Shown here piece by piece: positions 5,147 to 58,055 of a stretch of DNA of 64,000 nt. The stretch spans positions 54,803-118,802 of the IMG/VR virus record IMGVR_UViG_3300036766_002280. The stretch is one strand, 5' to 3'. The notes under the pieces are model-generated. The model did not search any database. It saw nothing but the letters and a program-made list of their open reading frames with translations, and was not told the DNA's origin. Position 1 is the stretch's first letter; the number at the start of each line of letters is the position of its first letter. This stretch comes from a virus (Duplodnaviria > Heunggongvirae > Uroviricota > Caudoviricetes). The position numbers were made by a program, and so were the translations under genes.

Positions 5147-5383
5147 GTGGTTAAACAAATGAGTATAGAAAAAGAAAAAACTGTAAAAGAATTGCTTGAT
5201 GATATTATTCAAACAGCAAAAGAACTTCAAGCTCTACAGAAATCAAGTCCAAATGAATTTGGAAAACGAGAAGCCAATGTTCTATCAAATGTGGATTCAA
5301 AATTATACGAAGTCAAGCTAGAAATCAGCGTTACTTCGAAAACGAAAAAAGTAATGGCAAAAAAATATGAGGACGAATTCTAA
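5147..5383 (+). CDS. hypothetical protein
   Basis: 78-aa Lys/Glu-rich ORF. Confidence 0.35.
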   Translation: MVKQMSIEKEKTVKELLDDIIQTAKELQALQKSSPNEFGKREANVLSNVDSKLYEVKLEISVTSKTKKVMAKKYEDEF

Positions 5384-5384
5384 A

Positions 5385-5828
5385 ATGAAAAAAGAAACGG
5401 TAGATAAAATTTTTAAAAAATTAATCAAAGAATCTCTTTGTCAGGGAAAAGAAACAGATAAATTAGTCCACGAAGCTTTAGCTCGTGGAGGTAGAACTTT
5501 GGTACTAGATGAGAATATTATGGAGTTAAGGGATCTTCTAAGAAATAAAAACTATACAGTTAACGTGGCACATGGAGTCGACGCTGAAATATTGGAAGAT
5601 CAAGTTAGAAATCATATTTTTCTTACAAATAATGCCTCAGATTTTGATGATGAAGATTTGCAAAAACTTTGTTATTACGGATTAGTTCTTACCCCTAATC
5701 CTAATGATTTTGATTCAAAATTGATGGCAGATGCTATCGAAAAAGTTCTAATGCAAGCTAATTTTGCAGGAAATCTAATACAGACGTGGCAGATTACGCA
5801 GGATTATAAATTCAGTAAAGTGAGATAA
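5385..5828 (+). CDS. DUF5615/Mut7-C-like PIN-fold protein (paralog of 10174..10575)
   Basis: VLDENIMELRDLLRNKNYTV...HIFLTNNASDFDDED fits the DUF5615 pattern (L-DENL...L...G-V......IL.T-D-DF). Confidence 0.45.
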   Translation: MKKETVDKIFKKLIKESLCQGKETDKLVHEALARGGRTLVLDENIMELRDLLRNKNYTVNVAHGVDAEILEDQVRNHIFLTNNASDFDDEDLQKLCYYGLVLTPNPNDFDSKLMADAIEKVLMQANFAGNLIQTWQITQDYKFSKVR

Positions 5829-5886: not shown

Positions 5887-7149
5887 ATGCCCATACAACA
5901 AGTATCTTTCGATGCTAGATCAAAGGTTCCAGTCAAGATCTGGACTAATGATATAGATGTCAAAACAAAAACTCAGTTAGATAATCTTGCAACAATGCCT
6001 TTTATTTTCCCTCATATTGCGGTTATGGCTGATTGCCATCTTGGAAAAGGAGCTACCATTGGATCAGTTATTCCTTGTCGTGGAGCTGTAATTCCTGCAT
6101 CAGTTGGAGTTGATCTTGGATGTGGAATGTCCGCAGCAAAATTGAATTTAAAGGTGGAAGAGCTTCCTGATACTCTTCATCCTGTTCGATTAGAAATTGA
6201 ACGATTAGTTCCTCATGGAAGAAGCGATGGTGGAGGACGAGGAGACTACGGAGCTTGGGGAGACCTTCCTGCTGATGTTGCTCAAGCCTGGTTTCATGAA
6301 CATTGGGGAGGTTCGACTTTACAAGCAAGATTAGATGCCATAGGAGTAGTTCATCCAGGTATTGTAAAAAAGCCTGTTAACGCGGAAAGGCATCTTGGAA
6401 CTCTTGGAACAGGAAATCATTTTGTAGAAGTGTGCTTTGATGAAAACAATGATATATGGGTTATGTTACATTCTGGTAGCCGTGGCATTGGCAACCGTAT
6501 TGGAACATATTTTATCGAATTAGCAAAGAAAGATATGAAGAAGTGGTTTATCAACTTACCGGATGAAGATCTTGCTTATCTGCCTGAAGGGTCTGATAAT
6601 TTCAATGATTATGTTCAAGCTGTGTCATGGGCTCAGGACTTTGCGAAGGCAAACAGAGAAATCATGCTGAAAAGAACTTTACGGGCGTTGTCAACTACTA
6701 TTCCTGTTTACAGAGACGGGCATAAAGATCTTCTGGTTCAGGATTCGATCATAGATTGTCATCATAACTATTTGATTCAAGAACATCACTTCGATCAAAA
6801 TGTCTGGGTTACCCGCAAGGGGGCAATTCGAGCACGGGTGGGAGATCTTGGGATTATACCCGGAAGTATGGGCACGGGTAGTTTTATTGTGGAAGGTAAG
6901 GGAAATCTTCAATCGTTTCACTCATGCTCCCACGGGGCAGGCAGAAGAATGAGTCGTGGAGAAGCTGCGCGTACCTTTACTGTTGAAGATCTTATAAAGC
7001 AAACGGATGGAATTGAATGCAAAAAGGATTTAAGCATTATCGACGAAATACCGGGAGCTTACAAAGATATTTATACAGTAATGGAAAATCAAAGTGATTT
7101 GGTTTCAATTAAGCATAAACTTCTGCAGATTATAAACGTAAAAGGGTAA
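5887..7149 (+). CDS. rtcB: RtcB-family RNA 3'-phosphate ligase
   Basis: Motifs GTLGTGNHFVEV, HSGSRGIGN, CHHNY and HSCSHGAGR. Length 420 aa is typical. RBS gaggag. Confidence 0.85.
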   Translation: MPIQQVSFDARSKVPVKIWTNDIDVKTKTQLDNLATMPFIFPHIAVMADCHLGKGATIGSVIPCRGAVIPASVGVDLGCGMSAAKLNLKVEELPDTLHPVRLEIERLVPHGRSDGGGRGDYGAWGDLPADVAQAWFHEHWGGSTLQARLDAIGVVHPGIVKKPVNAERHLGTLGTGNHFVEVCFDENNDIWVMLHSGSRGIGNRIGTYFIELAKKDMKKWFINLPDEDLAYLPEGSDNFNDYVQAVSWAQDFAKANREIMLKRTLRALSTTIPVYRDGHKDLLVQDSIIDCHHNYLIQEHHFDQNVWVTRKGAIRARVGDLGIIPGSMGTGSFIVEGKGNLQSFHSCSHGAGRRMSRGEAARTFTVEDLIKQTDGIECKKDLSIIDEIPGAYKDIYTVMENQSDLVSIKHKLLQIINVKG

Positions 7150-7211
7150 TCAAAAGTATAATAAATCAAAAAATCAAAAGTATATTTGATAAAATAACAA
7201 AGGAGAGTAAA

Positions 7212-7808
7212 ATGGTAAAATGGATTGCACTTGGAATTCTGGGAATTTTTGTATTAGTTGGAATGGGTACTTGTAGTTTTGGGGTGGAGACCTATAATTC
7301 TCTGGTGGCTGAAAGAGAAATGGTTAAACAAAAACTATCTCAGGTTCAGAATGTTTATCAACGACGTAATGATTTACTTCCAAATCTTGTTGAGATTGTT
7401 TCAGGTTATGCAAAGCACGAGCATAATACTTTGACAGATGTTATTACGGCAAGAAGTAAAGCAAGTGCTATTACAATTGATCCTTCAAAAGTTACTCCAA
7501 AACAGTTAGCGGCATTTCAAAGTTCTCAGGGTGAAATCAGTCAAGCTCTTGGTCGTTTAATGGTGGTATCAGAGCAGTACCCTAACTTGAAAGCTGATAC
7601 TCAGTTTATCAACTTACAATCCCAGGTAGAAGGAACGGAAAATCGTATTGCTGTGGAAAGAAGAGAATTTAACTTAGCTGCACAAAGGTTTGATACTCAT
7701 ATCGCTATATTTCCAACAATGATAATTGCTAGAGCTTTTGCTTTTGTTGAATACCCATATTTTCAAGCAGAAGTCGGCGTAGAAAAAGCACCCAAAATTA
7801 AGTTCTAA
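7212..7808 (+). CDS. lemA: LemA family membrane protein
   Basis: N-terminal TM helix. YNSLVAERE...YQRRNDLLPNLVEIVSGYAKHEHNTLTDV is the LemA signature. Confidence 0.8.
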   Translation: MVKWIALGILGIFVLVGMGTCSFGVETYNSLVAEREMVKQKLSQVQNVYQRRNDLLPNLVEIVSGYAKHEHNTLTDVITARSKASAITIDPSKVTPKQLAAFQSSQGEISQALGRLMVVSEQYPNLKADTQFINLQSQVEGTENRIAVERREFNLAAQRFDTHIAIFPTMIIARAFAFVEYPYFQAEVGVEKAPKIKF

Positions 7809-7819
7809 AAAGGAAATAA

Positions 7820-8371
7820 ATGCAAAACAGTAATCATCTTCGTTTGATGGAAGCTATGGAAGAATATCGGGATCAACTTAATTTGACTAGATGCGACTTC
7901 CGAGTAATCTATCCTTATAATGCTGAAATAAGATCAATGGAACATTTATTTAGAATTGTAAATTATCCTGACTTTTCTGTAGAAGAAATAATTGAGCAGC
8001 TTATTTTTTGGAAGACAGTATTGGAATCAACGAGAGGTTGTGTTTCTAGTGTGATTGAATGCGTGAAACAAAATTCAAGTAGCCCGCCTTGTTGTGTTAT
8101 AGGTCCAGCAACTTATTCGGCAGCTGATTTTGCACCTATTTCACAGGAGCAAGAAAGAGCTTTTAGAATTGTTTCGGACATTAGATTTGCTCAGAACCTA
8201 GATTGGCCATCAACTCCTTCTAGACAACGGTATAATTGTAGTTTTTGCTCTGAAAAAGATCTTGAGAATTTTTACACTTCTAAGAGAGGAAATATTGCTT
8301 GTCCAAAATGCTTCAAAGAACGGGAGGCAAGGCATCTTGCCAAGGAGAAAAAAGTAAATGCAAACATTTGA
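7820..8371 (+). CDS. hypothetical protein with C-terminal zinc ribbon
   Basis: CSFCSEKD...CPKC motif. Confidence 0.45.
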   Translation: MQNSNHLRLMEAMEEYRDQLNLTRCDFRVIYPYNAEIRSMEHLFRIVNYPDFSVEEIIEQLIFWKTVLESTRGCVSSVIECVKQNSSSPPCCVIGPATYSAADFAPISQEQERAFRIVSDIRFAQNLDWPSTPSRQRYNCSFCSEKDLENFYTSKRGNIACPKCFKEREARHLAKEKKVNANI

Positions 8372-8507
8372 TGTTACTCTTACAATGAAGGTCCTGGCTG
8401 AGACAGAAAAAGAAGCTGAAAAAGAATTGAATCGCATGATTAACGATATGGACTACTTTGTTACCCTCGTTAAGGATTCAGTTTCCTTACATTTGTCACA
8501 GGAATAG
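8358..8507 (+). CDS. hypothetical small protein (49 aa)
   Basis: RBS aaggagaaaaaagtaaATG. Below the ORF track cutoff. Confidence 0.35.
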   Translation: MQTFDVTLTMKVLAETEKEAEKELNRMINDMDYFVTLVKDSVSLHLSQE

Positions 8508-8508
8508 A

Positions 8509-9225
8509 ATGAGACTTCGTTTACTTTCGATTTTGATTTGGCTAATAAGTTTTTCTACGTTCTCTTCAGCAGGAGAGTATGACCATCCAGAAGGTAGAGT
8601 AAATGATTTTGCTCATATTTTAAGCATCAGAACGAAGAATATACTGGAAGCAAGATTACGTGACTTTGATAAAAAAACAAGTGTAGAAATTATTATTGTT
8701 ACTCTTCCAAAGTTAGATGGCAGGCCAATCGAAGATGTTACTATCGAAATTGCAAAGAAGTGGAAGATTGGTAAAAAGGATAAAAATAATGGAGTTCTTT
8801 TCACAATTGCTCCACATGATCATAAAGCAAGATTGGAAGTTGGCTACGGTCTAGAACCTATTATAACTGATGCCACTGCGAAAGGTATTTTACACAATGA
8901 TGTATTACCTTATTTTAAGAAAAGTGATTGGGATGGAGGAATAACTGCCGGGATCGATAAAGTTATGGAGCTTGTATCGAAGGATAAAACTTTAGCAGGA
9001 GTGATCTTTACCGATACTCTTGAAAAAGATTTATCGCTTTCAGGCTGGGAAGTGTTCTGGATTGCTTTAGGGGTAGCAATTCTTCTTCTGATAATGCTTG
9101 CTATTTTTGGAGTGGATGGCCTAGCTTTCATTGGCATCATATTGAATGCTATTTTGTCTGGTCGAAAAGATAAAGGATATTCAGGAAAAGGTGGTGGATT
9201 TGGAGGTGGAGGTTCTAGTGATTAA
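8509..9225 (+). CDS. TPM-domain (TLP18.3/Psb32-like) protein with C-terminal TM and Gly-rich tail
   Basis: Signal-like N-terminus MRLRLLSILIWLISFSTFSSA when started at the ATG at 8509. TPM-like core, TM helix and GGGFGGGG tail. Sits directly after LemA, a common pairing. Confidence 0.6.
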   Translation: MRLRLLSILIWLISFSTFSSAGEYDHPEGRVNDFAHILSIRTKNILEARLRDFDKKTSVEIIIVTLPKLDGRPIEDVTIEIAKKWKIGKKDKNNGVLFTIAPHDHKARLEVGYGLEPIITDATAKGILHNDVLPYFKKSDWDGGITAGIDKVMELVSKDKTLAGVIFTDTLEKDLSLSGWEVFWIALGVAILLLIMLAIFGVDGLAFIGIILNAILSGRKDKGYSGKGGGFGGGGSSD

Positions 9226-10173: not shown

Positions 10174-10575
10174 ATGAAAGTAATTGATAAAATTAATTTA
10201 TCTGGATTTTTAACAGGCATGTCAAGAGGGGTTGTTGTTCTTGATGAGAATTTGATTGTATTAAAAGATTCTTTGAGGGACGAGCACATCAAAGTAATTA
10301 TTCCAGAAAGGTTTTTAACAGATGATGCTATAAAACATCAACTTCTTTCTCATCGAATTTTGATTACAAATAATTCAGCAGATTTTGTAGAGGATGCTAC
10401 TGCTATTGAGTATGGAATTATTGCTACTGAAAATATCAAGTTCAAGGATAATTTGAAACTGTCAAAAATGATTTCAAAAGCTATAGTAAAGTTTGATCTC
10501 TGGTCTCATCAATCTGGTTTTATTTTAACGTTACAATCAGATGGCAAACATGATTTTAAGGTTCTTCCACGGTAA
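10174..10575 (+). CDS. DUF5615/Mut7-C-like PIN-fold protein (paralog of 5385..5828)
   Basis: VVLDENLIVLKDSLRDEHIKV...RILITNNSADFVED. Confidence 0.45.
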   Translation: MKVIDKINLSGFLTGMSRGVVVLDENLIVLKDSLRDEHIKVIIPERFLTDDAIKHQLLSHRILITNNSADFVEDATAIEYGIIATENIKFKDNLKLSKMISKAIVKFDLWSHQSGFILTLQSDGKHDFKVLPR

Positions 10576-10581
10576 AGGAAC

Positions 10582-11547
10582 ATGACAAATTTCAAAGAAA
10601 AAACTTATGATGTTGGCGTAATTATCGGAAGATTTCAGGTACCTGAGCTTCACGATGCACATAAGTATTTGATTGATCGTGTGATTGCAAAACACAAACG
10701 AGTTATTATTCTAATTGGAGTAACATCAACTCTCGGCACAAAAAGTAATCCACTTGATTTTCCTTCAAGAGTTGGGCTGTTTAAAGAGTATTTAACGAAA
10801 TTTGAAACAAGAATAATTCTTCATCCACTAACTGATGTGCCGGGAAATGATGAGGTCTGGAGTAAACAACTAGATCGTATCGTCAGAAGCGTTATTCCTC
10901 TTGGCACAGTTTCGCTCTACGGCGGAAGAGATTCTTTTATTAGGCATTACTCAGGTGGATTTGATACCTACGAGTTAGGATTTGAAAGCGATTCAGAGGG
11001 AAAGAAAATGAGAAAAGAATGTAGTCAAGTTCTTATTGATAGTAGAGATTTTAGAGCAGGTCAAATCTATCAGTCTCAAAATCAATTTCCAAAAGTATTT
11101 CCTACAGTTGATATCGCAGTGGTTCGACAGGGAGACATTGGCTTAGAGGTCTTAATGGGACTAAAGCCAAATCATAATGGCTTTAGTTTTCCCGGTGGGT
11201 TTGCGGACCCTACAGATGAGAACTACCAAGAAACAGCTAGAAGAGAATTATCGGAAGAAGTGGATGTGGAAATTGATTTATTTCTTCGATGTGTCGGGAG
11301 CTATCGAATAGCTGATCCACGTTACACTGGAGAAGAAAGAATTATAACAACTTTGTTTCTAGCTGATTATGTTTTTGGATCTGGGGCACCAAAATCTGAG
11401 TTCATAGAAACAGAATGGTTTAAGTTAGATCCTTCAAATTTAGGATTTGTGGCGGACAACCACAAACAATTATTTTTGGATATAGTTCAGTTTTGTAGAG
11501 ATTTTAATATCAAAAGGAAGACAAAAAGTAAGGAAGGAAGAGTTTGA
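10582..11547 (+). CDS. bifunctional NMN adenylyltransferase / Nudix hydrolase (NadM/NatV-like)
   Basis: N-terminal nucleotidyltransferase GRFQVPELHDAH (GRFQPxHxGH-like). C-terminal Nudix box GGFADPTDENYQETARRELSEEVDV. Confidence 0.75.
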   Translation: MTNFKEKTYDVGVIIGRFQVPELHDAHKYLIDRVIAKHKRVIILIGVTSTLGTKSNPLDFPSRVGLFKEYLTKFETRIILHPLTDVPGNDEVWSKQLDRIVRSVIPLGTVSLYGGRDSFIRHYSGGFDTYELGFESDSEGKKMRKECSQVLIDSRDFRAGQIYQSQNQFPKVFPTVDIAVVRQGDIGLEVLMGLKPNHNGFSFPGGFADPTDENYQETARRELSEEVDVEIDLFLRCVGSYRIADPRYTGEERIITTLFLADYVFGSGAPKSEFIETEWFKLDPSNLGFVADNHKQLFLDIVQFCRDFNIKRKTKSKEGRV

Positions 11548-12941
11548 AACTTAATACCAAAGCAAAATCAGACGTACTCACCCACGGTGGAGGAAATGCA
11601 AAATGGGTATCACCAGAACTGATGTTAAAGCGATCTGTTTGTGCCTGCCTTTTATGGGAAAATGAATTTTACGAAGATGGAGAAACCATTACTAAAAGAA
11701 TCAAATCCTTAGTTCCACAGTGTGATCCTCAGTTTGTTTCTGAGCTTGCAATTGAGGCAAGAACAGTAATGAATCTCCGTCATGTTCCTTTACTGCTTGC
11801 AGTGGAAATGACCAAGTATGCTATACACAAGAAGTATGTAGCCATGACCTTGGAAAAGATTATTCAACGTCCTGATGAAATTACTGAGTATCTGGCAATT
11901 TACTTCGGAGGAAGCGATAGAAGGGTTCTGAAAAGTAAACTTTCTAAACAAAGTAAAAAAGGTTTACGAGCGGCATTCTACAAGTTCAATGAATACTCCT
12001 TAGCGAAGTACAACCAAGATGGAGGAATCAAGTTACGAGATGCACTGTTTCTTGTTCATGCCAATCCAAAAACTGAGGCTCAGGCAGATCTGTTCAAAAG
12101 ATTAGCTGACAAGGAATTAAAAACTCCTGATACTTGGGAAGTGGCACTTAGTGCTGGTGCAAATAAGAAAGAAACTTTTCTTCGTTTGATACAAGAAAAG
12201 AAACTTGGGGCACTTGCGTTTCTTAAGAATCTTCGTGGCATGCATGAATCTGGAGTTTCCGAATCAGTTGTAGCCGAATACATAGCGAATGTGGATCTGT
12301 CCAAAGTATTACCATTTAGGTTTATTTCAGCGGCAAGGATGGTTCCTCAGTGGGAATCCGTAATAGACATCGGATTCTTAAGACGTACCACCCAGATGCC
12401 GAAATTGAAAGGAAAAACGGTAGTAATTATCGATGTCTCTGGAAGTATGTATGGTTCTAGGGTGAGTGCAAAATCTGATATGACCAGAGCCTTAGCGGCT
12501 TGTGCTTTAGCGGCTATTTGCAGAGAACTTTGTGAAACCTCTTCTATCTATGCAACAGCAGGTAATGATGGAATGAGAATTCATAAGACTGTTTTAGTTC
12601 CAAGCCGTCATGGAATGGCTTTAGTGGATGCAATTCATTCCCTGTCTCATCCTCTTGGTGGAGGTGGTATCTTTCTTAAACAGGTTATGGACTATGTTCG
12701 TACTCAAGAAAAGACAGCAGATAGAACAATCATTATCACGGATGAGCAGGATTGTTCTCAAGGGGAAGAAGATAGTCCTTCTCGGGCGCTGCCTCTTGGC
12801 ACTGGATATCTGATTAACGTTGCTTCTAATCAATTCGGAATTGGGTATGATAGGTGGACTCACTTTGATGGTTTTTCTGAATCAATCATGACCTATCTTA
12901 TCGAAGCTGAAAAATGGAAATTAGCTTACAATAGAAAATAG
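11544..12941 (+). CDS. rsr: Ro60-like (TROVE) protein with C-terminal vWA/MIDAS domain
   Basis: C-terminal vWA with MIDAS DVSGSM, then ...TDEQD. Length 465 aa and N-terminal region are compatible with TROVE. A structured ncRNA candidate follows immediately. Confidence 0.5.
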   Translation: MKLNTKAKSDVLTHGGGNAKWVSPELMLKRSVCACLLWENEFYEDGETITKRIKSLVPQCDPQFVSELAIEARTVMNLRHVPLLLAVEMTKYAIHKKYVAMTLEKIIQRPDEITEYLAIYFGGSDRRVLKSKLSKQSKKGLRAAFYKFNEYSLAKYNQDGGIKLRDALFLVHANPKTEAQADLFKRLADKELKTPDTWEVALSAGANKKETFLRLIQEKKLGALAFLKNLRGMHESGVSESVVAEYIANVDLSKVLPFRFISAARMVPQWESVIDIGFLRRTTQMPKLKGKTVVIIDVSGSMYGSRVSAKSDMTRALAACALAAICRELCETSSIYATAGNDGMRIHKTVLVPSRHGMALVDAIHSLSHPLGGGGIFLKQVMDYVRTQEKTADRTIIITDEQDCSQGEEDSPSRALPLGTGYLINVASNQFGIGYDRWTHFDGFSESIMTYLIEAEKWKLAYNRK

Positions 12942-12944
12942 CTC

Positions 12945-13440
12945 GAGCAGCGTAGATATGGGTTACTTCGATAAAGTTGGTTCAAATCCAATCGACCCTA
13001 GTGCGAAGGCAATAGGATTTGGTAAACCTGTAACGAATGTTCTCTCTAGCAATAAATTGATTCTTGAGCGGTGTAGAATTCAGGTACTTCCCGTTAATGA
13101 GCTTTTCCTGAAGTCGATTGTTCCCTCAAGACAAGAACTTTCAAATATAGCGGGCGGTGTAGACAAGGGTTACTTCATACGAGAACTGCCGTCTCGTAAG
13201 AGACTCAGAGGTTCGATTCCTCTCCGAGCCGAAAGGCCAGGTGGCGAAGTGGTTAACGCAGCAGATAGAATCCCTTATCGATTGTTCCCCCGCTAGGCAA
13301 GGCAAGGCAGGACAGACAATCAGTGGATAAGTATCCAGGTTGTTCCGAGCCTTTAGGTGCTGGCGCAGTGTAGAATTCAGGTACTTCCCGTTAAGGAGCC
13401 TTTCCTGAAGTCGATTGTTCTCGCCAGCACTTTTTGTTTT
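12945..13440 (+). ncRNA. Y-RNA-like structured ncRNA(s) with tRNA-like modules
   Basis: Non-coding gap after the rsr-like gene. Two near-identical 55-nt hairpin modules (13069-13124 and 13366-13420). T-arm mimic agaggTTCGATTcctct (13207-13223). D-arm-like ggccaggtggcgaAGTGGTTAAcgc (13235-13260). Terminal stem gtgctggcg/cgccagcac plus TTTTTGTTTT. Confidence 0.45.
13357..13440 (+). terminator. rho-independent terminator closing the ncRNA region
   Basis: gtgctggcg ... cgccagcac stem followed by a T-run at 13431-13440. Confidence 0.55.
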
Positions 13441-13474
13441 AAGGAATACTTTCCAGTAGAACTTTTGGAGGAGT

Positions 13475-14077
13475 ATGGAGCAATTTAGTATTTCAGTAAA
13501 AGATTATTTAAAAAAATTAATGGCTGTTGGTAATTTTGTAAGAGCTGAGAAATCAAGTTTTTCAGATTCACTAGATTATTTAAAATCTAAAAATTTCGAT
13601 TTTGTTTTGATAGGTGGTCTGGCAACATCACATTATTCTCCTCCTAGACTTACGGAAGATATTGATATTTTTTTAGAAAATGAACAAAAATTGGAAGAAT
13701 TCAAAAGGCTTTCTTTAGGAGAAGTTAAATGGATTAGAAAACATGCATTTATTTGTTCTGGAATTGAAGTAGAAGTTTTAACTCCTGAATTTTTAAGTAT
13801 TCCTTCTAAAATTTCGGATTATGTTTTTAGTACTAAAGTAGAAAAATCTTCTGGACTTTTTATTCCTTCTCCAGAAGGTGTTCTTCTGCTAAAACTTGAA
13901 GCCTTGAGAGATTTTCCAGACAAGCAAGATATCTACAATATAATTAAAACTCAAGGACAAAGTTTAGATCTTGAAATTGTAAAAAGTTTAACATCAGAAA
14001 AAGGAAGATTATTTTTAGACGAGGTAGTTAAAAATTTAAAGATTTTTCTAGAAGATCGATTAGAAGAAGAAGCTTAA
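13475..14077 (+). CDS. hypothetical protein, possible nucleotidyltransferase fold
   Basis: FVLIGGLATSHY...RLTEDIDIFL resembles minimal-NTase/AbiEii-like motifs. Weak. Confidence 0.3.
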   Translation: MEQFSISVKDYLKKLMAVGNFVRAEKSSFSDSLDYLKSKNFDFVLIGGLATSHYSPPRLTEDIDIFLENEQKLEEFKRLSLGEVKWIRKHAFICSGIEVEVLTPEFLSIPSKISDYVFSTKVEKSSGLFIPSPEGVLLLKLEALRDFPDKQDIYNIIKTQGQSLDLEIVKSLTSEKGRLFLDEVVKNLKIFLEDRLEEEA

Positions 14078-14097
14078 CAAAGGAAAGGAAGAAACGT

Positions 14098-15495
14098 ATG
14101 CGTAAAAATCTTTTGCTTTTGACGGATAGTTACAAGTTTTCTCACTGGAAACAATATCCTCCGGGAACGGAAAAAGTATTTTCTTACTTTGAATCAAGAG
14201 GTGGAGATTTTGAACGAACCATATTCTTTGGGCTGCAATACTTTTTGAAGGAATATCTTGAAGGATGCTCTTTTTCAGAAACAGATATTGCGCAAGCTAG
14301 AGTCTATGTTGAAGCACATATTGGACCTGGCATCTTCAACGAAGAGGGCTGGCAATATATTTTGAGGGAGCACAAGGGTAAGTTACCAGTCAAAATCCAG
14401 GCCGTCCCAGAAGGAATGTCAGTTCCAACGTCAAACGTTTTGATGACGATCGAAAATACGGATCCAAAATGCTTTTGGTTGACCAACTATCTGGAGACTT
14501 TACTTGTTCAAGTTTGGTATCCTACAACTGTGGCTACCCTTTCAAGAGAAATGAAAGAAGTTCTAACGGGGTATCTGGAAGAAACAGGAGATCCTGCTTT
14601 AGTTAATTTTAAACTTCATGATTTTGGATTCAGAGGAGTTAGTTCGGTAGAAAGTGCTGGTATCGGTGGAGCAGCTCATCTTGTAAACTTTATGGGCACG
14701 GATACAGTTCAAGCACTTGTGGTAGCAAATGATTATTACAATGAGCCAATGGCTGGATTTAGTATTCCTGCGGCAGAGCATTCTACGATTACAAGTTGGG
14801 GGCGTCATAATGAGGTCAAGGCCTTCGATAACATGATTACTCAATTTCCAAAAGGATTGGTTGCTGTGGTATCGGACTCTTACGATATCTATCGAGCCTG
14901 CGCTGTTCTTTGGGGAACGGAATTAAGAGACAAGGTTCTTGCCCGGGATGGAGTACTCATCATCAGACCTGATTCTGGGGAAGCAACTGAAGTTATTCCA
15001 CGAGTTTTAAAAACTCTTGGAAGTGCCTTTGGATATGAATTGAACAAGAAAGGTTACAAAGTTCTTAACCCAAAAGTAAGAGTTATTCAAGGAGATGGAG
15101 TTGATTACGATTCCATGCATGAGATTCTGTCCGTAATGAAACGGGATGGATGGAGTGCTGATAATATCGCCTTCGGAATGGGAGGGGCTTTACTGCAGAA
15201 GTTGAACCGGGATACGCAAAAGTTTGCCTTTAAATGCTCGAGCGTCACTATCAATGGGATAGAGCAGGATGTATTTAAAGAACCAGCGGATACTCCTTGG
15301 AAGAAATCAAAAGCAGGTAGACTTAAACTTTGCAAGGGATCGATGGGTGGGAAAATTGTTTGGTATACCACCCAAGAATCTACTCCGTATCATACTCATT
15401 CAAAGGATATGCTAGAAACTGTATTTTTGAATGGAGAAATTGTAAAGACGTATTCATTTGCAGAGGTTCGCGCCAATGCGAAGATAGAGGAATAA
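14098..15495 (+). CDS. nadV: nicotinamide phosphoribosyltransferase (NAMPT/NadV)
   Basis: 465 aa. FGFRGVSS, VVSDSYDIY, IRPDSGEATEV and QGDGVD are typical of the NAMPT/PBEF family. Confidence 0.85.
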   Translation: MRKNLLLLTDSYKFSHWKQYPPGTEKVFSYFESRGGDFERTIFFGLQYFLKEYLEGCSFSETDIAQARVYVEAHIGPGIFNEEGWQYILREHKGKLPVKIQAVPEGMSVPTSNVLMTIENTDPKCFWLTNYLETLLVQVWYPTTVATLSREMKEVLTGYLEETGDPALVNFKLHDFGFRGVSSVESAGIGGAAHLVNFMGTDTVQALVVANDYYNEPMAGFSIPAAEHSTITSWGRHNEVKAFDNMITQFPKGLVAVVSDSYDIYRACAVLWGTELRDKVLARDGVLIIRPDSGEATEVIPRVLKTLGSAFGYELNKKGYKVLNPKVRVIQGDGVDYDSMHEILSVMKRDGWSADNIAFGMGGALLQKLNRDTQKFAFKCSSVTINGIEQDVFKEPADTPWKKSKAGRLKLCKGSMGGKIVWYTTQESTPYHTHSKDMLETVFLNGEIVKTYSFAEVRANAKIEE

Positions 15496-15500
15496 TAGTA

Positions 15501-15641
15501 ATGTATAGAGTTATTTTTTGCGATTACACGATATTGGAAAAACAGTTGAATGAAGCAGAAAAAAAGGGTTACGAAGTAATTCATCTTAGCTATGATTCGA
15601 ACGAATCACAATTCATAATTGTTTGTAAAAATTCTGAATAG
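15501..15641 (+). CDS. hypothetical small protein (46 aa)
   Basis: RBS gaggaataatagtaATG. Confidence 0.25.
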   Translation: MYRVIFCDYTILEKQLNEAEKKGYEVIHLSYDSNESQFIIVCKNSE

Positions 15642-15643
15642 TT

Positions 15644-15731
15644 GGAAGGCTGGCTGAGTCCGGTTTAAAGCGCTAGTTTTGAGAACTAGAGAAGGTAAAA
15701 TCTTCCGTGGGTTCGAATCCCACGCCTTCCT
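15644..15731 (+). tRNA. tRNA-Ser (anticodon TGA), type II with long variable arm
   Basis: Acceptor ggaaggc/gccttcc. Anticodon stem ctagt/actag with loop ttTGAga. Variable arm gaag-gtaaaat-cttc. T-arm gtgggTTCGAATcccac. No encoded CCA. Confidence 0.7.
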
Positions 15732-15743
15732 TGCTTGCTTGAA

Positions 15744-15820
15744 TGGACTGTAGCTCAGCTGGCTAGAGCAGTTTCCCTATAAGAGACAGGTCGTTGGTTC
15801 GAGTCCAACCAGTCCAACCA
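15744..15820 (+). tRNA. tRNA, anticodon TAT (Ile-like), CCA encoded
   Basis: Acceptor tggactg/cagtcca + a + CCA. D-arm gctc-agctggcta-gagc. Anticodon stem gtttc/gagac with loop ccTATaa (unusual C33). T-arm gttggTTCGAGTccaac. Confidence 0.6.
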
Positions 15821-15857
15821 TAAGATTTTTTAGTGATAAAACTTACAAAGGAGAACA

Positions 15858-16370
15858 ATGCTGATACCATTTAGAGATGAAGCAGAAACGAACGCCTGGA
15901 ATGAAATGCACCTTGTTTTTTGGAAGTATGAATTGTCGGCGGTTCAAGTTCTTGGAATAGCCAACTATCTTGAATATACCACAAGGCTGCTGATTTCAAA
16001 AACAGAAAGTGACCATAATAAAGCAGAACGGATTGAGAAGTGGATTGACGGCATAACCATATCTAGAGCATCAAAAGCTCAAAATATCGACCCACCTTCC
16101 AAAGAATGCAGAGCTACCACAAAAGCCATCGCAATAATAATTTTCAGAAAGCACAATCTTATTCCAGATGCTATCGATACTGAAAAAGAAGGTCTTCTCC
16201 TGCGGTATGATAACGCCATCAATCATCGTAATATGTTTATCGAAGTTACAAAAGATCTGACAACCAATGCTGTGGTAGAGGAAAACAGTGTAATTCTTTC
16301 AGCTCCTAAAAATATTCTGCTTACAAACGACGATATCAAACAGATAATTGAAGTCTGGACGGAACCCTAA
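15858..16370 (+). CDS. hypothetical protein
   Basis: RBS aaaggagaacaATG. Confidence 0.5.
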   Translation: MLIPFRDEAETNAWNEMHLVFWKYELSAVQVLGIANYLEYTTRLLISKTESDHNKAERIEKWIDGITISRASKAQNIDPPSKECRATTKAIAIIIFRKHNLIPDAIDTEKEGLLLRYDNAINHRNMFIEVTKDLTTNAVVEENSVILSAPKNILLTNDDIKQIIEVWTEP

Positions 16371-16373
16371 CAA

Positions 16374-16679
16374 ATGGAACAATTCTGCGCACTATGCAGA
16401 CAATCCTTTGATGTTGAAGATAGTAAAGGAGTTGTTGCACATCTAGAGCTGGAACATCCTGTTCCAGCTGGAGGATTTAGATTTTTCTTTGAAGGTAGAA
16501 TCTTCTTTTCTAATAGGGCATCTATGCTGGTGCTGGACATAGTAGCTCTGACTGGTGGAAGTATTACTAATCAGGTGTTTGAACAACGTGGTGGTGAGAG
16601 ATTTTACTTAAGTCATTTAAGTTCTGTGGATCTTACTCATGAGCCACATTTGTATATTTGTATTTCTGCAACTTACTAG
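16374..16679 (+). CDS. hypothetical protein
   Basis: 101-aa ORF. Confidence 0.4.
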   Translation: MEQFCALCRQSFDVEDSKGVVAHLELEHPVPAGGFRFFFEGRIFFSNRASMLVLDIVALTGGSITNQVFEQRGGERFYLSHLSSVDLTHEPHLYICISATY

Positions 16680-16704
16680 TTACTAGCTAAATTGAAAGGT
16701 TAAA

Positions 16705-17832
16705 ATGTCATCTGTATACCCTCTGTTAAATAATTCTCTACTTATCGAACTTCTGCAGGACAACGCCGAACAAAAAATAAATGAAATTGTGCAAAAATGG
16801 GAAGAACCTCATCGATTCTATCATTCGTTCGATAACCATCTTCGTAAGCTCTTGGACATGATTGATAATATCAAATCAGAGCAGATAGAAGATTTGGAAG
16901 GAGTGATTAACGACGTAGCTTACTATTTGGATATACTGCGAGTAATTGCAGTCTTCCACGATGTGTTTTATGATCCCATGAGTAAGCAGAATGAAGAGTT
17001 ATCAGTTCAATATTTTAAACGAGTTTGTACGAATACAATCCACCCAGCTTATAATATCATTGTAGAAGCTATCGAAGATACAAAATATCATCAACCTCGA
17101 AATCCTTTTTCCAGAGCTTTTTGTGAGTTGGACCTTTTTGATCTTATTCATGGCAGTTTGAAATCTATTTTAGCTAACGAGATCCTTTTATTTAAAGAGT
17201 ACCAATTTTGTGATTACTCGTTGTACAAGGAAGGACGAGTAAAGTTCTTGAGAAAGTTTGTTGACGATCATACCGGTAAGAAATTAGGACGATACCACAT
17301 TATCATGTCTGATTTACAAGCACAAATTTTTGAACAATATATAGAATATATCGAGCATCGGGTTCCTCATATCGGAGTTTACGCAGGGTCATTCAATCCT
17401 TTTCATAAGGGGCATTTAAACATTCTTCAAAAGGCGGAAAAAGTTTTTGATAAAGTAATTATTGCTTTGGGGCTTAATCGTGTTAAAGATATCGTCAAAG
17501 TAGGGGATTCTCAATGGAGGCAGAAAATGATTAAAGATCTTCTTCCCTACCATCAGGTGGAAGAATTTACTGGTTTTCTTGCAGACTATTTACGAAGTAA
17601 ATGCGAGCATTCCCGTATTACACTAATTCGTGGTCTCCGAAATGGTGATGATTTTTCTTATGAACTTCTCCAGCATAGATTCTTGCAGGATCAATTTCCT
17701 AGTATCAGCGTTATCTGGATTCCCTGCGATAGAGAGTACGATTACATTTCGTCTTCAGCTATTAGACAAATTGAATGGATAGATCCTAAAGCAACATTGC
17801 CTTACGTTGTCCAATCAATGAGAAAAGACTAA
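16705..17832 (+). CDS. HD-domain / NadD-like nucleotidyltransferase fusion protein
   Basis: C-terminal GVYAGSFNPFHKGHLNIL matches (H/T)xGH cytidylyltransferase-like NadD/NMNAT. N-terminal half has an HD-like AVFHDVFYDP motif. Confidence 0.55.
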   Translation: MSSVYPLLNNSLLIELLQDNAEQKINEIVQKWEEPHRFYHSFDNHLRKLLDMIDNIKSEQIEDLEGVINDVAYYLDILRVIAVFHDVFYDPMSKQNEELSVQYFKRVCTNTIHPAYNIIVEAIEDTKYHQPRNPFSRAFCELDLFDLIHGSLKSILANEILLFKEYQFCDYSLYKEGRVKFLRKFVDDHTGKKLGRYHIIMSDLQAQIFEQYIEYIEHRVPHIGVYAGSFNPFHKGHLNILQKAEKVFDKVIIALGLNRVKDIVKVGDSQWRQKMIKDLLPYHQVEEFTGFLADYLRSKCEHSRITLIRGLRNGDDFSYELLQHRFLQDQFPSISVIWIPCDREYDYISSSAIRQIEWIDPKATLPYVVQSMRKD

Positions 17833-35567: not shown

Positions 35568-35834
35568 ATGGTTTCTTGTCCAAAATGCGATTATGAAGGT
35601 CCATCAAGGGATGCCTTATGGCAGCACAAGAAGACGCACCATCCTGAGACAATCCAATCTAAGAAAAAGAAAAACTGGAAACCTCGTAAGTTTTCTGTTA
35701 AGAAGATTCAAAAAATTATGGAGGACGCAAAAACTTTATCTACGAAAGACGTTTGTAAAAAGTTTAAGGTAGCTCCTTACAATATCTATCGTTGGAAAAA
35801 ACAAGTTGAAAATGGAATAACTTTAACTCATTGA
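35568..35834 (+). CDS. C2H2-like zinc-finger / HTH protein
   Basis: CPKCDYEG...HKKTHH, then a helix-turn-helix-like YNIYRWKKQ. The upstream in-frame part (35355-) overlaps the previous gene. Confidence 0.35.
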   Translation: MVSCPKCDYEGPSRDALWQHKKTHHPETIQSKKKKNWKPRKFSVKKIQKIMEDAKTLSTKDVCKKFKVAPYNIYRWKKQVENGITLTH

Positions 35835-36322
35835 AAAAAGAACTAGGATATCCTAAAAAAAAGATAGGATTTACTGGAACTCGATCGGGATTGACAAGGG
35901 ATCAATTCAACTCTCTTTTTAGTCTTTTGACTGAGAAGGGAGTTGAAGAGTTTCATCATGGGGATTGTATCGGAGCGGATGCCCGAGTACACCACTTAAT
36001 TGTCGATCATTTTCCCGATTGTAAAATAATTATTCACCCACCAAAAGATTCTAAGTATAGAGCTTTTTGTTGGGATGAGAAAAAAGCTCACTTAAAGTTG
36101 TGTGACCTTCGTCCTGAAAAGGATTATCTGGAACGCAATCAAGATATCGTGGATGAATGTGATATCTTGATTGCCACTCCAAAAGAGGTAAAAGAAGTAC
36201 TGCGCAGCGGAACTTGGTCTACCGTTAGATACGCTTCTAAAGTAGGTAAATCATCGATTATTGTCTACCCTGACGGGAGTATCTCAAAAGAGAGAGTTAG
36301 AACAGTTCGATGGGTTGATTAA
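35831..36322 (+). CDS. SLOG/DprA-like Rossmann-fold protein (DUF2493-like)
   Basis: GFTGTRSGLT...HHGDCIGADA resembles SLOG/LOG family motifs. TTG start overlaps the upstream TGA. Confidence 0.35.
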   Translation: MKKELGYPKKKIGFTGTRSGLTRDQFNSLFSLLTEKGVEEFHHGDCIGADARVHHLIVDHFPDCKIIIHPPKDSKYRAFCWDEKKAHLKLCDLRPEKDYLERNQDIVDECDILIATPKEVKEVLRSGTWSTVRYASKVGKSSIIVYPDGSISKERVRTVRWVD

Positions 36323-37883: not shown

Positions 37884-37886
37884 TAA

Positions 37887-38120
37887 GTGAAAACAAAAGA
37901 ATTGATTGAGATAATTCAAACTCTTGATCCATCCGGAGAGACTGATATAACAGGTAACCAGATAAAAGTTTTGTATATGACTGATAAAATTTGTAAACTA
38001 AGCTTCGAATTAGATTGGTATGTAAACAAGGATCTTGTTTTTAAAGGTTCTAGTAGTTTGTTTGATGCCCTAGCTAATACTATGAAAAGTAACTTCAGAA
38101 TATCCATTATAGAAAGGTAA
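37887..38120 (+). CDS. hypothetical protein
   Basis: GTG start 4 nt after the queE stop. Confidence 0.35.
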   Translation: MKTKELIEIIQTLDPSGETDITGNQIKVLYMTDKICKLSFELDWYVNKDLVFKGSSSLFDALANTMKSNFRISIIER

Positions 38121-38123
38121 TAA

Positions 38124-38513: not shown

Positions 38514-38530
38514 AGTGAGGAAAATAATAA

Positions 38531-48925: not shown

Positions 48926-48929
48926 CGAT

Positions 48930-58051: not shown

Positions 58052-58055
58052 CGAT

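What the first reader, a model, noticed from the sequence alone, without database searches (positions are those of the whole stretch)
10582..17832. Phage-encoded NAD+ salvage/reconstitution set: NAMPT plus two NMNAT-type adenylyltransferases
The island holds NAMPT (14098-15495), an NMNAT-Nudix fusion (10582-11547, like KVP40 NadV/NatV) and a second HD+NadD-like enzyme (16705-17832), all within 7 kb. By established knowledge, phage Nampt plus Nmnat (NARP2-type) rebuilds NAD+ from nicotinamide. That is the product left by NAD-depleting defences such as Thoeris, DSR, SIR2-type enzymes and some CBASS effectors. The HD-domain + NadD-like fusion is not part of the canonical pair and could feed a different precursor (NaMN or NR).
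Basis: partly seen in the sequence, partly recalled or inferred. Interest (0 to 1): 0.65.

Follow-up and report, generated by a model that had tools for sequence, protein, structure and literature searches.

The report
Jumbo-phage NAD+ salvage gene pair
A large phage carries the already known two-enzyme route for rebuilding NAD+ from nicotinamide; the supposed third NAD enzyme is instead an uncharacterised phosphodiesterase-like domain fused to a coenzyme-A-type adenylyltransferase.

Summary
All three ORFs are at the stated coordinates and are intact. ORF 14098-15495 is a true Nampt. It scores 633 bits on the NCBIfam equivalog (cutoff 405) and is 52% identical to human NAMPT and 45% to KVP40 NadV. 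ORF 10582-11547 is a divergent NadM-type NMNAT fused to a Nudix domain. Its motifs are present, and its best structural matches are the solved NadM-Nudix enzymes. Together they form a NARP2-type NAD+ salvage pair, which is already described and common in large phages. In 76 of 80 related viral loci the two genes lie within 10 kb of each other. Here a Ro60/Y-RNA-like/nucleotidyltransferase insert separates them.

Verdict: a new member of a known kind, plus one modest unexplained lead.

The parts
10582..11547 (+). Bifunctional NadM-type NMN adenylyltransferase (about residues 1-165) fused to a Nudix hydrolase (about residues 165-321). This is the Nmnat component of the NARP2-type pair.
   Evidence: PF00293 matches residues 190-284 at 1.4e-11. 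Several PRK05379 'bifunctional NMNAT/Nudix' models match at E down to 1.9e-19, below their cutoffs. phrog_395 and phrog_1198 also match. The best PDB sequence hits are 2QJT and 2QJO. The best fold hits are 2QJO, 2QJT and 2R5W at E 1e-17 to 1e-15 across both domains. In the family alignment the motifs are GRFQ(16-19), LHDAH(23-27), R144 and the Nudix box at 205-229 with an intact RExxEE.
14098..15495 (+). Nicotinamide phosphoribosyltransferase (Nampt/NadV). This is the first step of the NARP2-type pair.
   Evidence: PF18127 matches at 3e-38 and PF04095 at 4.5e-58. NF006629 scores 633 bits against a cutoff of 405. phrog_448 matches at 5.6e-167. Human NAMPT matches at 1.5e-158 with the LHDFG, AAEHST, IIRPDSG, IQGDGV and FGMGG motifs identical. 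Identity is 52% to human NAMPT and 45% to KVP40 NadV.
16705..17358 (+). N-terminal HD-superfamily, phosphodiesterase-like domain of the fusion protein. Substrate unknown.
17359..17832 (+). C-terminal CoaD/PPAT-like adenylyltransferase domain of the fusion protein. It is not NadD-like.
11544..14077 (+). Intervening block that splits the NAD pair. It holds Ro60/TROVE-vWA (11544-12941), a non-coding stretch with Y-RNA-like repeats (about 12943-13430) and a Pol-beta-type nucleotidyltransferase (13475-14077). It is context, not part of the NAD pathway.
   Evidence: TROVE matches at 1e-17 and vWA_Ro60 at 2.4e-4. DUF2204, DUF6036 and AbiEii match weakly. phrog_850 'RNA-binding protein' matches at 8e-37. 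YrlA matches below threshold. Repeats were found. In 76 of 80 related viral loci NAMPT lies within 10 kb of NMNAT-Nudix, nearly always immediately downstream.
15644..15820 (+). tRNA-Ser(TGA) and tRNA-Ile(TAT), lying between NAMPT and the HD-PPAT-like gene. Context only.
   Evidence: Rfam RF00005 scores 56.4 and 58.3 bits. ARAGORN finds both.

Best explanation
The region belongs to a large phage. The window has a phage-type replication module, and the contig is about 212 kb. The region encodes a NARP2-type NAD+ salvage pair.

The proposed pathway is inferred from the characterised homologues. Nampt (14098-15495) condenses nicotinamide with PRPP to give NMN. The N-terminal NadM-type domain of the 10582-11547 protein adenylylates NMN with ATP to give NAD+. 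Its C-terminal Nudix domain hydrolyses ADP-ribose (and NAD(H)) to AMP plus ribose-5-phosphate, which host Prs can turn back into PRPP. The net effect is to rebuild NAD+ from nicotinamide, the product left behind by NAD+-cleaving defences.

The pair is normally adjacent. Here a Ro60/Y-RNA-like/nucleotidyltransferase block has been inserted between the two genes.

The third gene (16705-17832) is not a second NMNAT. It is a member of a large, mainly Bacteroidota family in which a phosphodiesterase-like HD domain is fused to a catalytically intact PPAT (CoaD)-like adenylyltransferase. It was probably captured from a Cytophagales-type host lineage.

My best guess for its chemistry has low confidence, about 0.45 within this explanation. 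The HD domain releases or trims a phosphate-bearing precursor. The C-terminal domain then transfers AMP from ATP onto it. The acceptor is most plausibly 4'-phosphopantetheine, giving dephospho-CoA. That would make it a cofactor-salvage accessory that sometimes travels with phage NAD/ADP-ribose gene islands.
For: Shown by tools:
- The ORFs are intact.
- Nampt is above its curated cutoff and has all aligned catalytic motifs.
- The NMNAT-Nudix architecture, motifs and fold are present.
- Of the 80 closest viral NMNAT-Nudix loci, 76 have NAMPT within 10 kb, nearly always directly downstream. Prs occurs in 23, Macro in 12, SLOG in 13, Sir2 in 9 and NADAR in 6.
- The nearest GenBank relative, the huge phage LR756502.1, has the two genes adjacent.
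- No Prs/Adps, PnuC or NadR was found among the window ORFs that were scanned.
- The window is phage-like. It encodes a UvsX-like recombinase, a Dda-like helicase, a clamp loader, a processivity factor, an SSB and three HNH endonucleases.

For gene 3:
- The PPAT catalytic residues are conserved. Their roles are taken from PMC12784347 and PMC3764209.
- The closest HD-domain relatives are almost all fused to PF01467.
- The full-length fusion was found in at least 80 bacterial species, mostly Cytophagales and Sphingobacteriales.
- Both canonical (TxGH, N106) and HxGH-type PPAT-like genes lie beside NAD genes in phages: Mx1, L142, L144-146, L189 and L200, and L015, L020, L024 and L036.
- One PPAT-like gene has CoaE within two genes.

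From the literature: NARP2 is Nampt plus Nmnat. It counters Thoeris and other NAD+-depleting systems, and is present in about 1.1% of phages (10.1101/2024.02.11.579819). NadV and NadM are described as the phage NAD+ salvage apparatus (PMC9503650).
Against: No enzyme activity or infection phenotype can be tested here.

The NMNAT domain is highly divergent. It has no Pfam PF01467 hit at E below 0.01, and it scores 70 bits against the 354-449-bit cutoffs of the PRK05379 equivalogs. In the second nucleotide-binding motif the window has SEGKKMR, where 23 of the 24 aligned homologues have (S/E)(G/S/A)(T/S)xxR. The near-invariant Thr is Lys here, so activity could be reduced.

No Prs is encoded nearby, so the pathway depends on host PRPP.

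For gene 3, the CoaD model score is just below its cutoff. The pantetheine-contact residue Asn106 is replaced (L327), T15 is His, and there is a family-specific invariant Cys. The acceptor may therefore not be phosphopantetheine. In bacteria the immediate neighbours give no consistent functional signal.
Confidence: 0.75

Rival explanations
1. The HD-plus-adenylyltransferase protein is a second, NadD-like NMN/NaMN adenylyltransferase that opens another entry into NAD+ (from NaMN or NR). It would be analogous to NadD-YqeK (HD) pairs and fusions.
For: The domain has HxGH (HKGH) rather than the TxGH of CoaD. NadD, NadM and NadR models do match weakly at the N-terminus. The gene lies 1.2 kb downstream of NAMPT. 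PPAT-like genes recur next to NAMPT, NadM-Nudix and Prs in other phages. L144-146 carry NMNAT-Nudix, a PPAT-like gene and Prs, with no NAMPT within 10 kb.
Confidence: 0.15
2. The NAD genes are general auxiliary metabolic genes. They raise NAD+ supply for phage replication rather than being a dedicated counter-defence.
For: NARP2 raised NAD+ even in cells without a defence system, and it consumes PRPP. NadV is found in about a third of jumbo phages. The genes lie among other metabolic and repair genes. Snow-virus surveys report NAMPT, nadM and coaD as abundant AMGs.
Against: Expression of NARP2 demonstrably overcame type I Thoeris and other NAD+-depleting systems. The two roles are not mutually exclusive, so this changes the emphasis rather than the mechanism.
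Confidence: 0.3
3. The HD-PPAT-like protein, and possibly the Nudix domain, belongs functionally to the interleaved RNA-repair set (RtcB, Ro60, Y-like RNAs, nucleotidyltransferase, tRNAs). It would process RNA ends or nucleotide caps (NAD or dephospho-CoA caps) rather than free cofactors.
For: The NMNAT-Nudix stop overlaps the Ro60 start by 4 nt. RtcB lies within 10 kb of NMNAT-Nudix in 5 of 80 related loci. Thg1-like genes lie within 10 kb of PPAT-like genes in 8 of 39 viral loci. Fold hits for the Nudix domain include NudC bound to NAD and to dephospho-CoA. HD domains of CCA-adding enzymes act on RNA ends (own knowledge).
Against: HIGH-motif nucleotidyltransferases of the PPAT/NMNAT type act on small phosphorylated metabolites (established knowledge). 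Ro60 is near NMNAT-Nudix in only 1 of 80 loci, and no HD domain is near it in any. Large-phage accessory islands mix unrelated functions.
Confidence: 0.1
4. The NMNAT domain of the 10582-11547 protein is degenerate, and only the Nudix (ADP-ribose/NAD pyrophosphatase) half works. In that case Nampt would rely on host NadD or NadR to finish NAD+ synthesis.
For: The window has a unique Thr-to-Lys change in the SGTxxR motif and Ala in HxGH. The NMNAT half has weak profile scores and lower model confidence in residues 130-170.
Against: Ala at the Gly position is common across the conserved family. GRFQ, H24, H27 and R144 are retained, and the family is under clear conservation at 50% mean column identity. 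The fold is predicted confidently for residues 10-130.
Confidence: 0.12

Closest known systems
NARP2 (NAD+ reconstitution pathway 2): Vibrio phage KVP40 NadV (Nampt) + NatV (Nmnat-Nudix)
   Same: The same two enzyme types. The window Nampt is 45% identical to KVP40 NadV over its full length. The second protein has the same NMNAT-plus-Nudix architecture as described for NatV. The predicted chemistry is the same: Nam + PRPP -> NMN -> NAD+.
   Different: The Nmnat-Nudix belongs to a divergent subfamily shared with Cytophagaceae and Chitinophagales bacteria and with huge phages. It is only 21-26% identical to the NadM-Nudix proteins of GenBank phages. I did not locate NatV itself; the KVP40 gene I compared (KVP40.0211, annotated nadR) aligns only over the NMNAT domain. 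The pair is split by an RNA-repair insert. No activity data exist.
Bacterial NadV / NadM-Nudix (/Prs) salvage: Synechocystis slr0787 (PDB 2QJO) and Francisella NadM-Nudix (2QJT, 2R5W)
   Same: These are the best sequence and fold matches for the 10582-11547 protein, across both domains. The GRFQ..HxGH and Nudix-box motifs are shared.
   Different: Identity is about 20%. There is a two-residue insertion in the GRFQP-HxGH motif (GRFQVPELHDAH), and the protein is shorter (321 aa against about 340). Scores are far below the equivalog cutoffs. No Prs is encoded in the window.
Phosphopantetheine adenylyltransferase (CoaD/PPAT, TIGR01510; e.g. E. coli 1B6T, S. aureus 4NAH)
   Different: It is fused to an N-terminal HD/PDE-like domain. 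It has HxGH instead of TxGH, Ser for T10, Leu/Met in place of Asn106, and an invariant Cys before the ISSS motif. It scores just under the CoaD cutoff, and NCBI names the family only 'adenylyltransferase/cytidyltransferase family protein'.
   Same: An HD-superfamily domain is combined with a HIGH-motif adenylyltransferase.
   Different: The domain order is reversed. The transferase is PPAT-like, not NadD-like. The HD domain gives no YqeK-type match: PRK07152 matches only residues 223-281, the transferase N-terminus. Knowledge of the YqeK family is my own and was not tested here.
NARP1 (Adps + Namat) and NARP3 (PnuC + NadR)
   Same: These are phage pathways that also rebuild NAD+.
   Different: No Prs-like Adps, PnuC or NadR was found in the scanned window ORFs. 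The window protein is 52% identical to human Nampt, whereas SpbetaL1 Namat is 36%. It is therefore the PRPP-using type.

Membership tests
NARP2 (phage Nampt + Nmnat) | A Nampt-clade (PRPP-using) nicotinamide phosphoribosyltransferase, not a Namat | tested here: met
   NF006629 scores 633 bits against a cutoff of 405. Identity is 52% to human NAMPT and 45% to KVP40 NadV. Published Namat is 36% identical to human Nampt. No Adps/Prs-like gene was found in the scanned window ORFs. The selectivity-clamp residues were not examined individually.
NARP2 (phage Nampt + Nmnat) | An Nmnat homologue encoded in the same phage | tested here: met
   ORF 10582-11547 has the NadM-type NMNAT plus Nudix architecture by profile, PDB sequence search and fold search. 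The HxxH, GRFQ and R144 motifs are present. It lies 2.55 kb upstream of NAMPT on the same strand.
NARP2 (phage Nampt + Nmnat) | Produces NAD+ from nicotinamide, PRPP and ATP, and rescues the phage from NAD+-depleting defences | not testable with these tools
   Needs enzymology and infection assays. Inferred only from KVP40 and SBSphiJ knock-in data.
NadM-Nudix bifunctional enzyme (PRK05379) | Reaches the curated equivalog score | tested here: not met
   The best match is NF003786 at 70.1 bits against a cutoff of 397. This is a divergent subfamily with 2920 relatives at E<=1e-5.
NadM-Nudix bifunctional enzyme (PRK05379) | N-terminal (H/T)xGH and C-terminal SxxxxR nucleotide-binding motifs, plus a Nudix box GX5EX7REUXEEXGU | tested here: inconclusive
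   HDAH (24-27) and R144 are present. The Nudix REx2EE (221-226) is intact. The Thr of SGTxxR is Lys in the window only, and the Nudix box has a one-residue insertion and G->D at the last Gly.
NadM-Nudix bifunctional enzyme (PRK05379) | Two-domain fold like 2QJO and 2QJT | tested here: met
   The top six Foldseek PDB hits are 2QJO, 2QJT and 2R5W at E 5.5e-17 to 2e-15 over about 345 columns. The model has pLDDT 84. TM is only about 0.4 because the domain orientation differs.
NadD (NaMN adenylyltransferase), for ORF 16705-17832 | Best and full-length match to NadD models or structures | tested here: not met
CoaD / PPAT (TIGR01510), for the C-terminal domain of ORF 16705-17832 | Reaches the curated equivalog score | tested here: not met
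   95.3 bits against a cutoff of 103.3. This is a near miss.
CoaD / PPAT (TIGR01510), for the C-terminal domain of ORF 16705-17832 | Catalytic and ATP/phosphate-binding residues H18, K42, R88, R91 and S128-S130 | tested here: met
   H237, K261, R309, R312 and S349-351 align with these residues and are invariant or nearly so in the family. Residue roles are from PMC12784347.
CoaD / PPAT (TIGR01510), for the C-terminal domain of ORF 16705-17832 | Conserved pantetheine-contact residues (P8-G9, A37, L73, L74, N106) and the TxGH motif | tested here: inconclusive
   G9, L73 and L74 are conserved, A37 is Gly, and P8 is Ala or Pro. N106 is replaced by L327 (Leu, Met, Phe, Val, Tyr or Ala in the homologues aligned), and T15 is His. 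The residue list is from PMC3764209.
CoaD / PPAT (TIGR01510), for the C-terminal domain of ORF 16705-17832 | Adenylylates 4'-phosphopantetheine; is the organism's essential CoaD | not testable with these tools
   Needs an assay or complementation.
HD superfamily phosphohydrolase/phosphodiesterase, for the N-terminal domain of ORF 16705-17832 | H...HD...D metal-binding motif and the HD fold | tested here: met

The most novel reading that the evidence does not exclude
The HD(PDE-like)-PPAT-like fusion, and the stand-alone PPAT-like genes found beside NAMPT, NadM-Nudix, Prs, Sir2 and NADAR in other phages, may mark an unrecognised accessory arm of phage cofactor reconstitution.

In this reading, a phosphodiesterase step frees a phosphorylated precursor and the PPAT-like domain re-adenylylates it. 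The precursor could be 4'-phosphopantetheine released from holo-ACP or from degraded CoA. It could also be a ribose-5-phosphate or ADP-ribose-derived compound, given that the gene lies directly upstream of Prs in L019, L020 and L024.

Phages would then rebuild a second ADP-containing cofactor (dephospho-CoA/CoA), or an ADP-ribose intermediate, alongside NAD+. That would imply that host defences or infection deplete it.
Probability: 0.12. Interest if true: 0.7.

Novelty: new member of a known kind. Interest (0 to 1): 0.35.

Why it matters
The Nampt + Nmnat-Nudix pair adds a divergent example of NARP2, probably from a phage infecting Bacteroidota. NARP2 is a pathway already shown to defeat NAD+-depleting immunity. 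This example extends the host range of the idea but does not change it.

The useful correction is that the third enzyme is not another NAD enzyme. It belongs to a large, uncharacterised two-domain family (HD/PDE-like plus PPAT-like) that is widespread in Cytophagales and Sphingobacteriales.

PPAT-like genes turn up repeatedly inside phage NAD/ADP-ribose islands. Neither the full-text search nor the main survey of viral NAD+-ADPr systems that I checked mentions this. If that association is functional, it would point to a second cofactor that phages replenish during infection. It would also give the bacterial family a testable function.

Tried and rejected

2. Guilt by association in bacteria. 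I fetched 80 genome loci and clustered the neighbours, then ran Pfam on 135 immediate neighbours. Only lineage-specific synteny appeared: S15/pnp in Mucilaginibacter, PTPS/GTP cyclohydrolase I in some Cytophagales, and acyl-ACP thioesterase in 5 immediate neighbours. No NAD or CoA genes appeared, so the result was uninformative.

3. An AcpH-like identity for the HD domain. No Pfam ACP_PD hit appeared at E<=1, and there were no informative PDB sequence hits; the best was the uncharacterised BH2835 at E 0.2. This stays a speculation.

4. The AAA_28 hit of ORF 56495-57028 as a nicotinamide-riboside kinase. PHROGs calls it thymidylate kinase, and it sits between dCMP deaminase and the clamp loader. 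Rejected as an NAD gene.

5. Direct comparison with KVP40 NatV. The gene I found annotated as an NMN adenylyltransferase (KVP40.0211, 'nadR') aligns only over the NMNAT domain (hhalign probability 72%) and appears to be NadR-like. NatV itself was not located.

6. Microcystis 'phage' MaAM05 coaD. The locus carries ribosomal protein genes, nusG and secE, so it looks like bacterial sequence and was ignored.

7. Sigma-70 promoter and terminator scan. There was no terminator excess over shuffles and only a slight promoter-like excess (52 found against 39.7, sd 6.2, in shuffles). The model is also unsuited to Bacteroidota.

8. Literature. No paper in the library combines PPAT, NAMPT and phage, and none mentions COG4339.

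Full report
OBSERVATION. An independent assembly of the same sequence (Logan SRR11714510) carries identical gene calls. The longest contig holding these proteins is 211,832 bp.

The window looks viral. Genes are dense and nearly all on one strand. There are many ORFans and a phage-type replication module. The module includes family-A polymerase with an N-terminal UDG-like domain, DnaB-like helicase, primase, processivity factor, clamp loader, SSB, UvsX-like recombinase, Dda-like helicase, ThyX and dCMP deaminase. There are also three HNH endonuclease paralogues. The closest GenBank relatives of the NAD genes are 460-735-kb 'uncultured phage' genomes.

NAMPT. ORF 14098-15495 matches PF18127 and PF04095. 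It exceeds the curated cutoff of the NCBIfam equivalog NF006629 (633 bits against 405). It aligns end to end with human NAMPT structures at E 1.5e-158 with 52% identity, and with the biochemically characterised KVP40 NadV at 45% identity.

The motifs that carry the catalytic residues in human NAMPT are identical in the alignment. They are LHDFG with the nicotinamide-selecting Asp, AAEHST with the autophosphorylated His, IIRPDSG, IQGDGV and FGMGG. The residue roles come from established knowledge.

The NARP1 enzyme Namat is reported to share only 36% identity with human Nampt (PMC12774641). No Prs-like Adps gene was found among the window ORFs scanned. So this is the PRPP-using Nampt type.

NMNAT-NUDIX. 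ORF 10582-11547 has a clear C-terminal Nudix domain (PF00293, 1.4e-11). The N-terminal half has no Pfam hit at E below 0.01. It is matched, well below cutoff, only by the 'bifunctional NMN adenylyltransferase/Nudix hydrolase' and archaeal NMNAT models.

The best PDB sequence hits are the two solved NadM-Nudix enzymes, 2QJT and 2QJO. An AlphaFold model (pLDDT 84) returns these same entries as its six best Foldseek hits, at E 5.5e-17 to 2e-15 across both domains.

The protein belongs to a large conserved subfamily, with 2920 relatives at E<=1e-5. It includes Cytophagaceae and Chitinophagales chromosomes. An alignment of 24 members shows GRFQ, (H/T/S/M)x(G/A)H, an (S/E)(G/S/A)(T/S)xxR motif and an intact Nudix RExxEE.

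The window protein keeps H24, H27, R17 and R144. Uniquely, it has Lys in place of the near-invariant Thr (SEGKKMR). This is the one blemish on the catalytic case.

Against GenBank phages it is colinear with annotated NadM-Nudix proteins over about 70-80% of its length, at 21-26% identity.

THE PAIR IN CONTEXT. I fetched the 80 closest viral loci of this NMNAT-Nudix subfamily. NAMPT lies within 10 kb in 76 of them, almost always immediately downstream. Other genes within 10 kb are Prs in 23, a SLOG protein in 13, Macro in 12, Sir2 in 9, NADAR in 6, RtcB in 5 and Ro60 in 1.

So the window contains the standard pair. It has been split by 2.55 kb holding a Ro60/TROVE-vWA gene, a 530-nt non-coding stretch and a nucleotidyltransferase gene. 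The Ro60 start overlaps the NMNAT-Nudix stop by 4 nt.

This pair is what Osterman et al. named NARP2. They showed that it restores NAD+ and overcomes type I Thoeris and other NAD+-depleting systems, and they found it in about 1.1% of phages, with 94% of Nampt phages also encoding Nmnat. An independent survey found NadV in about 33% of jumbo phages, always accompanying NadM. The core of the finding is therefore real but already known.

THE THIRD GENE. The C-terminal domain (residues about 219-375) matches the CoaD equivalog TIGR01510 at E 3.6e-27 over profile positions 2-135 of 155. At 95.3 bits it falls just under the 103.3-bit cutoff. NadD, NadM and NadR models match only the first 35-65 residues, around the shared HxGH motif, at 1e-4 to 1e-8.

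I aligned the domain to E. coli PPAT, having first checked my copy of that sequence against 1B6T. The residues shown by mutagenesis to be essential or important are all conserved: H18, K42, R88, R91 and S128-130 correspond to H237, K261, R309, R312 and S349-351. The G9 and L73/L74 pantetheine contacts are also conserved.

The differences from canonical CoaD are these:
- HxGH instead of TxGH.
- Ser for T10.
- Gly for A37.
- Leu (Leu, Met, Phe, Val, Tyr or Ala in the aligned homologues) in place of the conserved pantetheine-contact Asn106.
- A family-invariant Cys341.

THE FUSION FAMILY. The full-length fusion has hundreds of homologues at about 40-45% identity. NCBI names them 'adenylyltransferase/cytidyltransferase family protein' and JGI names them 'pantetheine-phosphate adenylyltransferase'. 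They occur on bacterial chromosomes of Cytophagales (Microscillaceae, Raineyaceae, Thermonemataceae), Sphingobacteriales (Mucilaginibacter), Kapaibacteria/Ignavibacteria, Lentisphaeria and others.

The closest relatives of the HD domain are almost all fused to PF01467. Beyond them come about-200-aa 'predicted metal-dependent HD superfamily phosphohydrolase' proteins. The two domains therefore work together.

In 80 bacterial loci no NAMPT, NMNAT-Nudix or Ro60 homologue lies within 7 kb, and the neighbours are lineage-specific. The phage most likely acquired the gene from a Bacteroidota host lineage.

IS GENE 3 LINKED TO NAD IN PHAGES? Partly. Of 39 viral loci with PPAT-like genes (17 of them fused to HD), NAMPT and/or NMNAT-Nudix lie within 10 kb in L015, L020, L024 and L036. 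Prs lies directly downstream of the PPAT-like gene in L019 and L020, and within about 1 kb, with one gene between, in L024. Sir2 occurs in four loci and NADAR lies next to the gene in several. Thg1-like genes occur in eight.

Among the genes within two positions, Pfam finds Prs three times, NADAR twice, and ADP-ribosylglycohydrolase, RpiB, SIR2 and CoaE once each. In the other direction, 6 of the 80 NMNAT-Nudix loci, representing four lineages, carry a PPAT-like gene.

Myxococcus phage Mx1 has a PPAT-like gene overlapping a NadM-like gene in the same operon as NAMPT. Both canonical (TxGH, Asn106: Mx1, L142) and HxGH-type (window, L015, L020, L024, L036, L144-146) enzymes take part.

PPAT-like genes are rare in GenBank phages overall, at 53 of 50,697 records. 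The association therefore looks more than random. But large-phage accessory islands are mosaics, and I have no size-matched control. I treat it as a lead.

That canonical CoaD-like genes occupy the same niche, and that one has CoaE within two genes, tilts me towards true PPAT-type chemistry (4'-phosphopantetheine -> dephospho-CoA). The replaced Asn106 and the Prs adjacency keep other acceptors open. The full-text library holds no paper combining PPAT, NAMPT and phage. The survey of viral NAD+-ADPr systems does not mention PPAT. A snow-virome paper lists coaD and coaE among abundant AMGs without linking them to NAD.

MECHANISM (inferred). Nicotinamide released by NAD+-cleaving effectors is joined to host PRPP by Nampt to give NMN, and the NadM domain adds AMP to give NAD+. 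The Nudix domain degrades ADP-ribose to AMP and ribose-5-phosphate, which feeds PRPP synthesis by host Prs, since none is encoded here. Gene 3 probably carries out a separate two-step reaction (phosphodiester cleavage, then adenylyl transfer) on another cofactor precursor.

VERDICT. The NAD pair is a new, divergent member of a known pathway. The 'second NMNAT' is a mis-assignment. The HD-PPAT-like fusion is an uncharacterised family worth a small enzymology project. Interest 0.35.

Noticed in passing
window 11544-13474: A Ro60/TROVE + vWA gene (11544-12941) is followed by about 530 nt of non-coding DNA holding four repeated modules. Each module starts with GTAGA..GG(T)TACTTC and ends with TCGATTGTTC(C/T)C. 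One module (13179-13284) has a perfect tRNA-like T-arm and a sub-threshold YrlA (Y RNA-like) match of 15.9 bits, E 2.4. These are probably phage Y-like RNAs. The 112-aa ORF at 12958-13296 is probably spurious.
   Followed up: partly
window 5887-9225: Just upstream of the NAD genes lie an RtcB RNA ligase (5887-7149, PF01139 at 1.5e-121), then LemA (7212-7808) and a TPM-domain protein (8458-9225). Together with Ro60, the Y-like RNAs and the tRNAs this looks like an RNA-repair set interleaved with the NAD genes. RtcB also lies within 10 kb of NMNAT-Nudix in 5 of 80 related viral loci.
   Followed up: partly
window 13475-14077: A 200-aa Pol-beta-type nucleotidyltransferase lies between the Y-like RNA region and NAMPT. 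It has weak DUF2204, DUF6036 and AbiEii hits at E 2e-4 to 8e-4. It has no PHROG or NCBIfam match, and no homologue in any fetched locus.
   Followed up: partly
window 15644-15820: Two tRNA genes, tRNA-Ser(TGA) and tRNA-Ile(TAT), lie between NAMPT and the HD-PPAT-like gene. Both Rfam and ARAGORN find them.
   Followed up: yes
window 5367-5828 and 10174-10575: Two small paralogous proteins (30% identity over 105 residues, E 6e-9) with no family match. One lies just upstream of RtcB and the other immediately upstream of NMNAT-Nudix.
   Followed up: partly
window 37137-39003 and 49635-51103: A 7-deazaguanine (queuosine-precursor) gene set is present: QueE-like radical SAM (37137-37883), QueD/PTPS (38488-39003), GTP cyclohydrolase I (49635-50234) and a TGT/DpdA-like transglycosylase (50231-51103). 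This suggests modified guanine in the phage DNA. PTPS and FolE are also the commonest non-trivial neighbours of the bacterial HD-PPAT fusion (7-8 of 80 loci), which may be coincidence.
   Followed up: partly
window 42133-42840, 48918-49622, 58044-58733: Three closely similar Cys-rich genes of about 230 aa are scattered through the replication module. The first was scanned and matches phrog_374 'HNH endonuclease' at 4.8e-62; the other two were judged similar by reading their sequences. They are likely homing endonucleases.
   Followed up: partly
window 52502-55132: The family-A DNA polymerase carries an N-terminal uracil-DNA-glycosylase-superfamily domain (PF03167, 1.9e-13) ahead of its 3'-5' exonuclease and polymerase domains.
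   Followed up: no
window 18687-19401: A YdcK-type beta-solenoid repeat protein (18687-19358). Its repetitive coding sequence produces long spurious ORFs in other frames and on the opposite strand (for example 18796-19401, - strand, 201 aa).
   Followed up: no
window 35831-36322: A 163-aa protein matching phrog_289 'GTP-binding domain' (2.1e-9). It resembles the SLOG-type protein that lies between NMNAT-Nudix and NAMPT in 13 of 80 related viral loci. Here it is about 20 kb away from the NAD genes.
   Followed up: no
L020 / L024 / L174 / L186 / L191 / L196-L201 (IMG/VR contigs): A recurrent larger NAD/ADP-ribose island occurs in other phages. The order is NMNAT-Nudix, SLOG, NAMPT, (NADAR), Macro, Sir2, (PPAT-like), Prs, Thg1-like. 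The PPAT-like gene, when present, lies upstream of Prs (directly in L020; one gene between in L024).
   Followed up: partly
L044 (MW495066.1, 'Microcystis phage MaAM05'): The region around its annotated coaD carries rplA, rplK, nusG, secE, tRNA-Trp and a type III secretion secretin gene. It looks like bacterial chromosome rather than phage sequence.
   Followed up: no
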